Source of the DNA: Escherichia coli
GTDB taxonomy: Bacteria; Pseudomonadota; Gammaproteobacteria; Enterobacterales; Enterobacteriaceae
DNA: 64,000 nt
Assembly (NCBI RefSeq): GCF_045037415.1
Contig: NZ_CP173438.1
Reading direction: 5' to 3' (one strand)
Under the pieces are notes generated by a model that saw nothing but the letters and a program-made list of their open reading frames with translations, was not told the DNA's origin and did not search any database. Both the position numbers and the translations under genes were made by a program. Positions 47,769-48,143 of the stretch are shown here, piece after piece. The stretch's first letter is position 1. Every line of letters begins with the position of its first letter.

Positions 47769-48143
47769 TGTGCAATATTCTCCAGCCAGGGACTATTAAA
47801 ATGAGGACCTGGTTCTCATTTAAAAATAAATAACTTCATTGGGTGAAATAAGAATGTCAGGAGTTTAAATGCAGAAATGTGATCAATGTCAATCATTTCA
47901 GGGATTGCAGTACCTCCCGGCAAGGTAAAGCGCAAATCTGTGCTTTAGCGCGCAACCTTATGTGCATATGCTCAAAATAATATTTAAATAGTACTAATTA
48001 AATTAGCATTTGCACAATGATTATTATTCTCGCGCTGCTTATACTAATTCCCGAGTTCATTGTCGTAACGGCATAAATAAAACTCATAAATAACACCTTC
48101 CCCATAATAATAAAAATCAGCATAAGTACCCGAGGTAAATAAA
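47769..48143. promoter_or_regulatory. divergent garD / garPLRK control region (AT-rich, 375 bp)
   Basis: position between divergent start codons; contains distant inverted 8-mers ATTGTGCA (about 47767) and TGCACAAT (about 48011). Confidence 0.35.

What the first reader, a model, noticed from the sequence alone, without database searches (positions are those of the whole stretch)
47769..48143. Long AT-rich garD / garPLRK divergent control region
The 375-bp spacer is among the most AT-rich stretches in the window and carries distant inverted 8-mers (ATTGTGCA near 47767 and TGCACAAT near 48011) plus several A/T tracts. The activator for these operons (CdaR/SdaR) has no motif I can recall with confidence, so this is only a flag for motif discovery.
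Basis: seen in the sequence. Interest (0 to 1): 0.2.

Follow-up and report, generated by a model that had tools for sequence, protein, structure and literature searches.

The report
garD–garP divergent promoter and operator region

Summary
The spacer is 375 bp at 34.9% GC, in the lowest ~1% of 375-bp windows. The inverted words are there and extend to 10 bp. An inverted repeat of that size is expected by chance (≥8 bp in 82% of shuffles, ≥10 bp in 10%).

The region is the E. coli garD / garPLRK divergent promoter region. Comparison of 44 enterobacterial spacers with cdaR, gudP and garD promoters from about 30 genera shows a 195-bp module without length changes in 41 of 44 spacers. Its parts are:
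- an extended −10 promoter for garD with a high-affinity CRP site at the class II position; CRP binding was reported in vitro in a 2026 preprint;
- a weak CRP-like element;
- two copies of a palindrome, ATTGTGCA-NN-TGCACAAT.

The copy at 48001–48019 lies 20 nt upstream of the garP −10 (TATACT). It shares an exact 14-mer with the autoregulated cdaR promoter (1 of 1000 shuffles).

The left 8-mer is a lone half-site over the garD start codon, found only in Escherichia, so the pair is not a unit.

The box is most likely the CdaR operator. Its binding has never been tested, and both transcription starts are inferred. This is a known kind of control region, of low interest.

The parts
46197..47768 (-). 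garD coding sequence (galactarate dehydratase); the start codon is the complement of 47766–47768.
   Evidence: It matches the NCBIfam equivalog TIGR03248 at 940 bits. RefSeq annotates it as garD in a 100% identical genome.
47767..47774 (.). In the garD sense it reads TTGCACAATG, with ATG as the garD start codon. It is a lone CdaR-type half-site with no partner half.
   Evidence: The position was confirmed. Other genera carry ACTGGACAATG, and Escherichia differs by two substitutions, both toward the motif. The upstream 6 nt do not match a left half-site (read directly from the sequence).
47769..47790 (-). garD translation-initiation region (GCTGGAGAATATTGCACAATG), with the Shine-Dalgarno sequence GGAG at 47780–47783.
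   Evidence: It is nearly invariant across 44 spacers. Coordinates were verified.
47791..47844 (-). The rest of the inferred garD 5' leader. It is AT-rich and varies in length between genera.
   Evidence: The stretch from the garD start codon to the extended −10 block is 57–223 bp across genera, and mean leader GC is 34%. There is no Rfam match. The predicted fold is no more stable than shuffles, z = +1.1.
47851..47859 (-). Inferred garD core promoter, an extended −10 reading TGACATTCT on the − strand (TG at 47859–47858, hexamer CATTCT at 47856→47851). The predicted transcription start is about 47844.
   Evidence: CCTGACATTCTT is nearly invariant in 44 spacers. It sits a fixed 31.5 bp from the CRP centre in every spacer where both elements were located. 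The transcription start was not measured.
47875..47896 (.). CRP site 1, AAATGTGATCAATGTCAATCAT (core 47878–47893, centre 47885.5). This is −41.5 relative to the inferred garD start, the class II position.
   Evidence: The Footprint-seq preprint PMC12871828 lists aaTGTGAtcaatgTCAATcat for garP/garD, with an estimated Kd of 1.9 nM, in its table of novel CRP sites. It is conserved as GTGAT-N6-TCACA in all genera.
47939..47954 (.). Element C, TGTGCTTTAGCGCGCA (TGTGCATCAGCGCCCA in other genera). It is a CRP-type 16-mer (TGTGx-N6-xCxCA) centred at 47946.5, exactly 63 bp upstream of the box A centre. Its binding partner is uncertain.
   Evidence: It has 3 of 10 mismatches to TGTGA-N6-TCACA in 43 of 44 spacers and 2 in the other. 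Only 0.9% of 16-mers in the spacers match as well. The same 63–64 bp spacing between a CRP-like site and the box is seen in gudP promoters of 5 genera and in 17 of 18 garD promoters outside the Enterobacteriaceae. Caveat: its 6-bp centre is itself conserved.
47959..47976 (.). Box B, a candidate CdaR operator: TATGTGCATATGCTCAAA (core TGTGCA-TA-TGCTCA at 47961–47974, centre 47967.5). Its stronger half faces garD.
   Evidence: It is the best match in the 64-kb window to TGTGCA-NN-TGCACA, with 1 mismatch. It has ≤1 mismatch in most genera and lies at a fixed 22-bp offset from element C in 40 of 41 spacers. It is a 92% inverted copy of box A (I4). It is the top hit of a PWM trained on cdaR and gudP sites in several Enterobacter-type loci. 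In E. coli itself its PWM score is low, 1.3 bits.
47975..48002 (.). The 28-bp linker between boxes B and A, at 7% GC. This is the most AT-rich stretch of the spacer.
   Evidence: Its length was the same in all 41 spacers measured. Its sequence is not conserved, and mean GC across genera is 20%.
48001..48019 (+). Box A, a candidate CdaR operator overlapping the −35 region of the garP promoter: AATTAGCATTTGCACAATG (core 48003–48016, centre 48009.5, about −43).
   Evidence: It holds an exact 14-mer shared with the cdaR promoter, p≈0.001. The box sits 20 nt upstream of a TAT(A/G)CT or TATAAT −10 in cdaR, gudP and garD promoters of about 30 genera. The flanks ATTG(A/T)GC…ACA(A/G)TG are conserved in garP promoters. 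It ranks 2nd–3rd of 128,000 window positions with PWMs built without the window.
48040..48045 (+). garP −10 hexamer, TATACT. The predicted transcription start is about 48052–48054.
   Evidence: (G/T)TTATACT is invariant in 44 spacers. It lies a fixed 37 bp from the start of the box A core in 41 of 41 spacers. The transcription start was not measured.
48053..48143 (+). Inferred garP 5' leader. It is AT-rich, with the Shine-Dalgarno sequence GAGG at 48132–48135.
   Evidence: The distance from the −10 to the garP ATG is 103–182 bp between genera, and mean GC is 32%. The predicted fold is no more stable than shuffles, z = −0.5. There is no Rfam match.
48144..49478 (+). garP coding sequence (galactarate/glucarate/glycerate transporter), the first gene of garPLRK.
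   Evidence: Supported by NCBIfam matches and the RefSeq annotation.

Best explanation
The spacer is the shared transcriptional control region of the divergent garD gene and garPLRK operon. Between two length-variable, AT-rich leaders lies a core of about 195 bp (47851–48045) with fixed spacing that holds five elements.

1. A garD promoter with an extended −10 (TGnCATTCT) and a high-affinity CRP site centred 41.5 bp upstream of the inferred start. This is a class II, galP1-like arrangement.
2. Element C, a weak CRP-type site 61 bp further on.
3. Box B.
4. Box A. Boxes A and B are two mirror-image copies of the palindrome ATTGTGCA-NN-TGCACAAT, 42 bp (four helical turns) apart.
5. The garP −10, TATACT. 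It has no recognisable −35; box A occupies that position, centred at about −43.

Proposed mechanism (inferred):
- CdaR loaded with galactarate, glucarate or glycerate binds the boxes.
- From box A it recruits RNA polymerase to garP directly, helped by CRP at element C, 63 bp upstream. The same arrangement is seen at gudP and at garD outside the Enterobacteriaceae.
- From box B it stimulates the CRP-dependent garD promoter from about −123.

What is shown: the sequences, their conservation and fixed spacing, their recurrence in all four promoters of the regulon including cdaR itself, and, from the literature, CRP binding in vitro and CdaR-dependent induction of these promoters.

What is inferred: that CdaR is the protein on the boxes, both transcription start sites, and how garD is activated from a distance.

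The right one is part of box A. The left one is an isolated, lineage-specific half-site on the garD start codon.
For: Identity and layout.

Conserved blocks in 44 spacers from about 25 genera.

Motif recurrence:
- De novo Gibbs sampling on 12 promoters that do not include the window (cdaR ×5, gudP ×7) recovers TTnTGTGCAnnTGCACAATG 20 nt upstream of a −10.
- cdaR promoters of Salmonella and Pantoea carry the perfect palindrome TGTGCA-NN-TGCACA.
- 17 of 18 garD promoters examined outside the Enterobacteriaceae, including Gallibacterium (Pasteurellaceae), show box, about 20 nt, then TATACT/TATAAT; in Brenneria L063 no −10 was found.
- The window shares an exact 14-mer with the cdaR promoter (1 of 1000 shuffles).
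- Two of the three best matches to the core palindrome in 64 kb are boxes B and A, 42 bp apart.

Specificity of the motif:
- A PWM trained only on cdaR and gudP sites puts its top hit for each 6.5-kb locus inside the garD-upstream spacer in 45 of 80 loci, against about 8 expected.
- Three of the top hits elsewhere lie directly upstream of cdaR genes in Serratia, Siccibacter and Yersinia.

Fixed geometry: extended −10 to CRP is 31.5 bp, CRP centre to the start of element C is 53.5 bp, element C to box B is 22 bp, box A to the −10 is 37 bp, and element C to the garP −10 is 101 bp in 41 of 41 spacers.

All 11 differences between this strain and K-12 fall outside the proposed elements (P≈0.0035).

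Literature:
- CRP site with Kd 1.9 nM: PMC12871828.
- garD is up-regulated in the Crp-cAMP group under carbon limitation: PMC6390033.
- PgarD, PgarLRK and PgudT reporters respond to glucarate, galactarate and glycerate, and CdaR is described as their regulator: PMC11077982.
- PgarP was the most sensitive CdaR-responsive promoter tested: 10.1101/2024.05.15.594374.
- PucR-type relatives bind 17–24 bp inverted repeats, and GabR binds two: PMC7652997.
Against: - No protein–DNA data exist for CdaR. PMC7652997 states that its binding site had not been determined as of 2020.
- Box A scores only about 11 bits, below every training site. That is no higher than the best chance hit expected in a 64-kb scan (mean 14.6–14.9 bits).
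- E. coli box B scores 1.3 bits with the promoter-proximal PWM.
- The number of core-palindrome matches with ≤2 mismatches in the window (3) is not above the simulated mean of 4.3.
- Both transcription starts are inferred. No start-site data could be retrieved, and the simple σ70 scan finds no canonical promoter in the spacer.
- A CdaR box at −123 is an unusual position for activating garD. The arrangement outside the Enterobacteriaceae has the box at about −43 and a CRP-like site about 63 bp further upstream.
- The 6-bp centre of element C is conserved, unlike a typical CRP site.
Confidence: 0.75

Rival explanations
1. The two distant inverted 8/10-mers work as a pair. Either they are two operator half-sites brought together by a DNA loop of about 240 bp that encloses both promoters, or they are a long-range stem.
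For: They are a perfect 10-bp inverted repeat. Each arm equals the consensus half-site of the candidate CdaR box. Both Escherichia-specific substitutions in the left arm move toward the motif.
Against: - Inverted repeats of ≥8 bp occur in 82% of shuffles and ≥10 bp in 10%.
- The exact left arm exists only in Escherichia. All other genera have CATTGTCCA-type sequence while keeping the rest of the module.
- The left arm lies in the strongly conserved ribosome-binding and start-codon stretch, which explains its near-match. It has no partner half-site.
- The two arms lie on different transcripts, so they cannot form an RNA stem.
Confidence: 0.05
2. The shared palindrome is bound by a protein other than CdaR, or it is a special promoter element, for example for an alternative sigma factor. 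On this reading CdaR binds elsewhere in the spacer.
For: CdaR binding has never been mapped. The box overlaps the −35 position, so part of its conservation could reflect RNA polymerase contacts.
Against: - The motif occurs in just the promoters reported to form the CdaR regulon: garD, garP, gudP and cdaR, which autoregulates (Monterrubio et al. 2000, recalled from memory because the paper was not held).
- It is found upstream of cdaR in eight genera.
- It is a dyad of the size bound by PucR-type relatives.
- Its half-site spacing does not fit the σ54 −24/−12 pattern, and CdaR has no AAA+ domain; its domains are Diacid_rec, GGDEF_2 and HTH_30.
Confidence: 0.1
3. The AT-richness marks foreign or H-NS-silenced DNA, or it hides a small gene or RNA element such as an upstream ORF, an antisense ORF or a riboswitch-like leader.
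For: - GC is 35% against 51% for the window.
- A 19-codon ORF starts at the ATG of box A (48017–48076).
- A 41-codon ORF lies on the − strand at 47998–48123.
Against: - The garD<>garP layout and the core module are conserved across about 25 enterobacterial genera, so this is not recent foreign DNA.
- AT-richness is concentrated in the two leaders and the B–A linker in all genera, as expected for promoter DNA.
- The sequence after the upstream ORF's ATG is not conserved, and that ORF starts upstream of the inferred transcription start.
- There is no Rfam match at E≤1.
- Neither leader folds better than shuffled sequence.
- Nothing is annotated in the spacer in K-12 or strain 447.
- H-NS binding itself was not tested.
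Confidence: 0.05

Closest known systems
CdaR (SdaR, YaeG) regulon promoters of E. coli (garD, garPLRK, gudPXD, cdaR), and the SdaR site predicted by comparative genomics (Rodionov et al. 2010, RegPrecise)
   Same: This is one of those promoters. It has the same genes and the same activator, and it is induced by galactarate, glucarate and glycerate. A candidate SdaR site has already been predicted by comparative genomics in γ-proteobacteria.
   Different: The published logo could not be read here, so identity with the palindrome found here is unverified. No experimental operator has been reported. The two-box, two-CRP module with fixed spacing described here was not found in any paper I could search.
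galP1-type class II CRP-dependent promoters with an extended −10
   Same: The CRP site centre lies 41.5 bp upstream of the inferred start. A TG sits one base upstream of a weak −10 hexamer, and there is no −35. CRP binds with nanomolar affinity in vitro.
   Different: The garD start site has not been mapped. The promoter also depends on a pathway-specific activator whose nearest candidate site is more than 100 bp upstream.
Operators of PucR-family activators (B. subtilis PutR with a 17-bp inverted repeat, AdeR with a 24-bp inverted repeat; C. glutamicum GabR with two 21-bp inverted repeats bound by an octamer)
   Same: CdaR belongs to this group, with Diacid_rec, GGDEF-like and HTH_30 domains. 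The candidate box is an 18-bp inverted repeat and is present twice in the gar spacer, like the GabR sites.
   Different: The sequences are unrelated. The oligomeric state of CdaR is unknown. One biosensor study found no cooperativity, with a Hill coefficient of 1.
Divergent catabolic control regions that combine CRP with a specific activator (araC–araBAD; MelR/CRP at melAB)
   Same: One intergenic region carries phased sites for CRP and for a sugar-specific activator and drives two divergent transcription units. Some activator sites lie at about −100 and −120, as MelR sites 1 and 1' do (recalled from memory).
   Different: The activator belongs to a different family. Here both flanking units are structural genes and the regulator gene is elsewhere in E. 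coli. No looping or repression is known.

Membership tests
CdaR-regulated promoter (operator for a PucR-family activator) | A common sequence motif is present in all promoters of the regulon, including the autoregulated regulator gene. | tested here: met
   The box was found in garP (window), E. coli cdaR and gudP, cdaR of 7 further genera, gudP of 5 further genera, and garD of 18 loci outside the Enterobacteriaceae.
CdaR-regulated promoter (operator for a PucR-family activator) | The motif has dyad symmetry of the size bound by family members (17–24 bp inverted repeats). | tested here: met
   The consensus is ATTGTGCA-NN-TGCACAAT. The core palindrome is perfect in Salmonella and Pantoea cdaR promoters. 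The family comparison comes from PMC7652997.
CdaR-regulated promoter (operator for a PucR-family activator) | The site is placed where an activator can contact RNA polymerase, and the promoter has a weak or absent −35. | tested here: met
   For garP this is met: the box ends 20 nt upstream of TATACT and its centre is about −43 from the inferred start. For E. coli garD it is not met in this form: the nearest box lies at about −123.
CdaR-regulated promoter (operator for a PucR-family activator) | The motif is specific enough to single out the site in a genome-scale scan. | tested here: inconclusive
   Box A ranks 2nd–3rd in 64 kb, but at about 11 bits, below the expected chance maximum. Across 80 loci the top hit falls in the expected spacer in 45, against about 8 by chance.
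CdaR-regulated promoter (operator for a PucR-family activator) | CdaR physically binds the site, and induction is lost when the site is mutated. | not testable with these tools
   No published binding data were found. PMC7652997 says the site had not been determined.
Class II CRP-dependent promoter (garD) | A CRP consensus site, TGTGA-N6-TCACA, that CRP binds. | tested here: met
   TGTGAtcaatgTCAAT at 47878–47893 matches 8 of 10 consensus positions, and other genera match better. In vitro Kd is 1.9 nM in PMC12871828.
Class II CRP-dependent promoter (garD) | The site is centred near −41.5 relative to a mapped transcription start. | tested here: inconclusive
   The geometry fits exactly if the conserved TGnCATTCT is the extended −10. 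No start-site data were obtained.
Class II CRP-dependent promoter (garD) | Expression depends on CRP–cAMP. | not tested
   The only evidence is indirect: garD falls in the Crp-cAMP-dependent up-regulated group under carbon limitation, which the authors themselves read as an indirect effect.
Structured RNA leader / riboswitch / small RNA | A match to a known RNA family, or folding that is more stable than expected. | tested here: not met
   There are no Rfam hits at E≤1. Fold z-scores are +1.1 and −0.5.

The most novel reading that the evidence does not exclude
The central 195 bp forms a fixed nucleoprotein module in which two CRP-type sites and two mirror-image CdaR boxes jointly control both promoters. 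In this reading the spacings of 61, 21 and 42 bp are kept without length change across about 25 genera. Within the Enterobacteriaceae the garD promoter would have been rewired. The arrangement seen in other Enterobacterales has the CdaR box at about −43 and a CRP-like site 63 bp upstream. In the rewired form CRP sits at −41.5 and CdaR acts from beyond −100. This would also be the first operator definition for CdaR, a regulator widely used in glucarate and glycerate biosensors.
Probability: 0.4. Interest if true: 0.35.

Novelty: already known. Interest (0 to 1): 0.2.

Why it matters
The gar and gud genes let E. coli and Salmonella grow on oxidised sugars that appear in the inflamed or antibiotic-treated gut. 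PgarP, PgudP and CdaR are also used as glucarate and glycerate biosensors.

In the papers I could search, no CdaR operator has been mapped experimentally, and the CRP site in this spacer was first reported in 2026. A concrete, testable map of the boxes, the CRP sites and the core promoters would help in two ways. It would guide rational tuning of those biosensors, and it would explain how catabolite control and induction are combined at these promoters.

This refines a well-understood kind of control region. It is not a new kind of element.

Tried and rejected
1. The inverted 8/10-mers as a functional pair. Rejected on shuffles and on the lack of conservation of the left arm.
2. A 19-codon upstream ORF (48017–48076) and a 41-codon antisense ORF (47998–48123). 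Neither is conserved, and the first starts upstream of the inferred transcription start.
3. A structured leader or known RNA family. No Rfam hit, and the folds are no better than shuffles.
4. A second, CdaR class II garD promoter downstream of box B or element C. No conserved −10 lies at the required 20-nt distance.
5. Element C as a third CdaR box. Only its left half matches. Its 6-bp centre and its 63-bp distance to box A fit a CRP-type site better.
6. An IHF site in the AT-rich linker. No match to WATCAANNNNTTR.
7. A canonical σ70 promoter scan. Nothing was found in the spacer, as expected for activator-dependent promoters.
8. PWM scans as stand-alone proof. Scores did not exceed chance for 64 kb.
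9. Literature that could not be used:
   - Monterrubio et al. 2000 is not held.
   - The RegPrecise logo is not readable.
   - No start-site tables list garD or garP.
   - The Footprint-seq supplements are not held.
   - No paper pairs the box sequence with CdaR.

Full report
**1. The observation**

The window is E. coli. The stretch 47600–48300 is 100% identical to strain 447 and 95–100% identical in 5,395 complete genomes, where it is annotated garD | garP. ORFs and NCBIfam equivalog models confirm garD (46197..47768, −) and garP, garL, garR and garK (48144 onward, +).

The spacer 47769–48143 is 375 bp at 34.9% GC, against 51.3% for the window. Only 1.07% of 375-bp windows are as AT-rich. 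ATTGTGCA is at 47767–74 and TGCACAAT at 48011–18. The perfect inverted repeat is 10 bp long.

Such a repeat is not remarkable. In dinucleotide-preserving shuffles, 82% carried an inverted repeat of ≥8 bp and 10% one of ≥10 bp.

**2. Footprinting the spacer**

One scan of representative genomes with GarD returned 80 loci across the Enterobacterales. In 44 of them garP lies divergent to garD, with a spacer of 370–525 bp. The alignment shows these conserved blocks:
- the garD ribosome-binding stretch (47769–90);
- 47843–65;
- 47875–96;
- 47936–54;
- 47961–75;
- 48013–20;
- 48035–47;
- the garP Shine-Dalgarno region.

**3. CRP and the garD promoter**

47875–96 (AAATGTGATCAATGTCAATCAT) is a CRP site. 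A January 2026 preprint lists exactly this sequence, for garP/garD, among "novel CRP sites" with an estimated Kd of 1.9 nM (PMC12871828). Other genera carry GTGAT-N6-TCACA at the same place.

On the garD strand, 31.5 bp downstream of the CRP centre, lies the nearly invariant CCTGACATTCTT. The distance is the same in every spacer where both elements were located. Read as an extended −10 (TG, one base, CATTCT; 47859→47851), it puts the transcription start near 47844 and CRP at −41.5. That is the classic class II geometry, as at galP1. This assignment is inferred. I found no start-site data, and the simple σ70 scan sees no canonical promoter.

The assignment agrees with garD falling in the Crp-cAMP-dependent group under carbon limitation (PMC6390033).

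**4. The candidate CdaR box**

The E. coli cdaR promoter contains GCATTTGCACAATG, identical to window 48006–48019. A match that long arose in 1 of 1000 shuffles. In garP, cdaR and gudP alike, TTGCAC starts 30 bp upstream of a TAT(A/G)CT −10.

cdaR promoters of Klebsiella, Salmonella, Dickeya and Pantoea keep TGCACAATG at the same place. Salmonella and Pantoea have the perfect palindrome TGTGCA-NN-TGCACA.

Gibbs sampling on 12 promoters that exclude the window recovers this motif de novo. Of 18 garD promoters examined outside the Enterobacteriaceae, 17 show GGTCAnTTGCA(C/T)AATG, about 20 nt, then TATACT or TATAAT; no −10 was found in Brenneria L063. The taxa include Pectobacterium, Serratia, Rahnella, Dickeya, Pantoea, Erwinia, Sodalis, and Gallibacterium of the Pasteurellaceae.

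In garP promoters the outer positions ATTG(A/T)GC…ACA(A/G)TG are the best conserved.

A motif shared by all promoters of one regulon, including that of the autoregulated regulator gene, is the standard signature of that regulator's operator. PucR-type relatives of CdaR bind 17–24 bp inverted repeats (PMC7652997). The same paper states that the CdaR site had not been determined. A comparative-genomics prediction of an SdaR site exists (PMC2996990), but its logo could not be read here.

**5. Specificity**

PWMs built without the window rank box A 2nd–3rd of 128,000 positions. The score is about 11 bits, which is not above the chance maximum for 64 kb. This is a real weakness.

Against it, four results:
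- Boxes B and A are two of the three best matches in 64 kb to the core palindrome, and they lie 42 bp apart.
- A PWM trained only on cdaR and gudP sites puts the top hit of each 6.5-kb locus in the garD-upstream spacer in 45 of 80 loci, against about 8 expected.
- Three of the top hits elsewhere turned out to lie directly upstream of cdaR genes next to garD in Serratia inhibens, Siccibacter and Yersinia.
- All 11 differences between this strain and K-12 avoid the proposed elements (P≈0.0035).

**6. Architecture**

In the 41 of 44 spacers where all landmarks could be located, the stretch from the garD −10 to the garP −10 has no insertions or deletions. The two leaders, in contrast, vary from 57 to 223 bp and from 103 to 182 bp.

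The order of elements is:

garD extended −10 → 31.5 bp → CRP1 (centre 47885.5) → 61 bp → element C (47939–54, centre 47946.5) → 21 bp → box B (47961–74, centre 47967.5) → 42 bp → box A (48003–16, centre 48009.5) → garP −10 (48040–45).

Boxes B and A are 92% inverted copies of each other (I4). The stronger half of each faces its own gene. The 28-bp linker between them is 7% GC, and 20% on average across genera. Together with the two leaders (32–34% GC), it accounts for the AT-richness.

I first took element C for a third CdaR box. It fits better as a weak CRP-type site, TGTGx-N6-xCxCA. It has 3 of 10 mismatches in 43 of 44 spacers, against a background of 0.9%. Its centre lies exactly 63 bp upstream of the box A centre. 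The same 63–64 bp spacing between a CRP-like site and the box is seen at gudP in five genera and at garD in 17 of 18 loci outside the Enterobacteriaceae. cdaR promoters have their CRP site 39–40 bp upstream of the box instead. One caveat remains: the 6-bp centre of element C is itself conserved, so another partner is possible.

**7. Mechanism**

*For garP (most likely).* Inducer-bound CdaR at box A (about −43) activates a promoter that has no −35. CRP at about −106 helps, and so perhaps does CdaR at box B (about −85). This matches reports that PgarP and PgarLRK are the most responsive CdaR reporters.

*For garD in the Enterobacteriaceae.* CRP1 at −41.5 is the proximal activator. The nearest CdaR box, B, is at about −123, with element C at about −102. 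CdaR-dependent induction of PgarD is documented, but how it acts from that distance is open. The fixed spacing suggests contacts that depend on the face of the helix.

Outside the family, garD has the box at about −43 and a CRP-like site 63 bp further upstream, so the promoter appears to have been rearranged.

**8.

The right word is the right half of box A. The left word overlaps the garD start codon; in the garD sense it reads TTGCACAATG. Other genera have ACTGGACAATG there, inside a strongly conserved ribosome-binding stretch. Escherichia differs by two substitutions, both toward the motif. The left word has no partner half-site. I treat it as incidental; a minor role cannot be excluded.

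**9. Alternatives set aside**

- No Rfam family matches.
- Neither leader is unusually structured.
- The two small ORFs in the spacer are not conserved.
- There is no IHF-like site.

**10. Verdict**

This is the known CdaR- and CRP-controlled divergent promoter region of garD and garPLRK. The "inverted repeat" as such is chance. The operator map offered here is computational and still needs binding and start-site experiments.

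Noticed in passing
window 47033–47052 (− strand), inside garD; position 3217 or 3178 in 25 of the related loci (e.g. L030, L037, L042): A box-like sequence lies within the garD coding region: CATTGTCAGTTTGCAGGATG in E. coli and CATTGTGCGTTTGCAGGATG in many genera. It is the top PWM hit in 25 loci, at up to 21 bits. It encodes I-V-(R/S)-L-Q-D, and E. coli has no −10 at the usual 20-nt distance. It is probably a coding coincidence kept by protein-level selection.
   Followed up: partly
window 39380–39393, inside the ORF 39120..40274 (−): CGTGCATCTGCACT is the third-best match in the window to the core palindrome TGTGCA-NN-TGCACA (2 mismatches). It was also the top or second hit of both PWMs. It is intragenic and is probably chance.
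   Followed up: partly
L076 (Yersinia aleksiciae) 4132–5364; L079 (Serratia inhibens) 4044–5283; L050 (Siccibacter) 4197–5452: In these species cdaR lies immediately downstream of garD, whereas in E. coli it is about 1.55 Mb away around the shorter arc of the chromosome. Each copy carries the box 56–90 bp upstream of its start codon.
   Followed up: yes
L062–L084 and L090–L093 (Pectobacterium, Serratia, Dickeya, Pantoea, Erwinia, Cedecea and others): In Cedecea and outside the Enterobacteriaceae, garD is divergent from gudP-gudX-gudD rather than from garP. Its promoter there has the CdaR box at the −35 position, with a CRP-like site 63–64 bp upstream.
   Followed up: yes
L039 (Salmonella arizonae), L008, L020 and 7 other loci: garP is missing and garD is divergent from garL directly. 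The CRP site, element C, box A and TATACT are retained. In Salmonella box B has degenerated to TGGGCTCTAGCCTA.
   Followed up: partly
L015 (Citrobacter amalonaticus S646) and L036 (Proteobacteria MAG), garD leader: Insertions of about 130 bp and about 75 bp sit in the garD leader, between the promoter block and the ribosome-binding site. They leave the central module intact. Their nature, possibly a repeat element, was not examined.
   Followed up: no
L003 2350–2375 (E. coli K-12 cdaR upstream) and its orthologues in L085–L088: A conserved CRP site (TGTGAACTTCACCACA) lies 39–40 bp upstream of the cdaR box in five genera. It matches the novel cdaR CRP site shown in the Footprint-seq preprint.
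   Followed up: partly
window 48014–48020 and 48057–48063: There is a conserved 7-bp inverted pair. ACAATGA forms the right flank of box A, and TCATTGT sits at about +4 to +10 of the inferred garP transcript (TTTCATTG in other genera). The two are 43 bp apart. Its meaning is unknown.
   Followed up: no
window 53483–53857, 4222–4596, 54616–54990: Three regions are even more AT-rich than the gar spacer, at 28.8%, 32.8% and 33.6% GC. They were not examined.
   Followed up: no
window 45249–46048 (−): The prlF–yhaV toxin–antitoxin pair lies immediately downstream of garD, and agaR lies beyond it, as in K-12.
   Followed up: no
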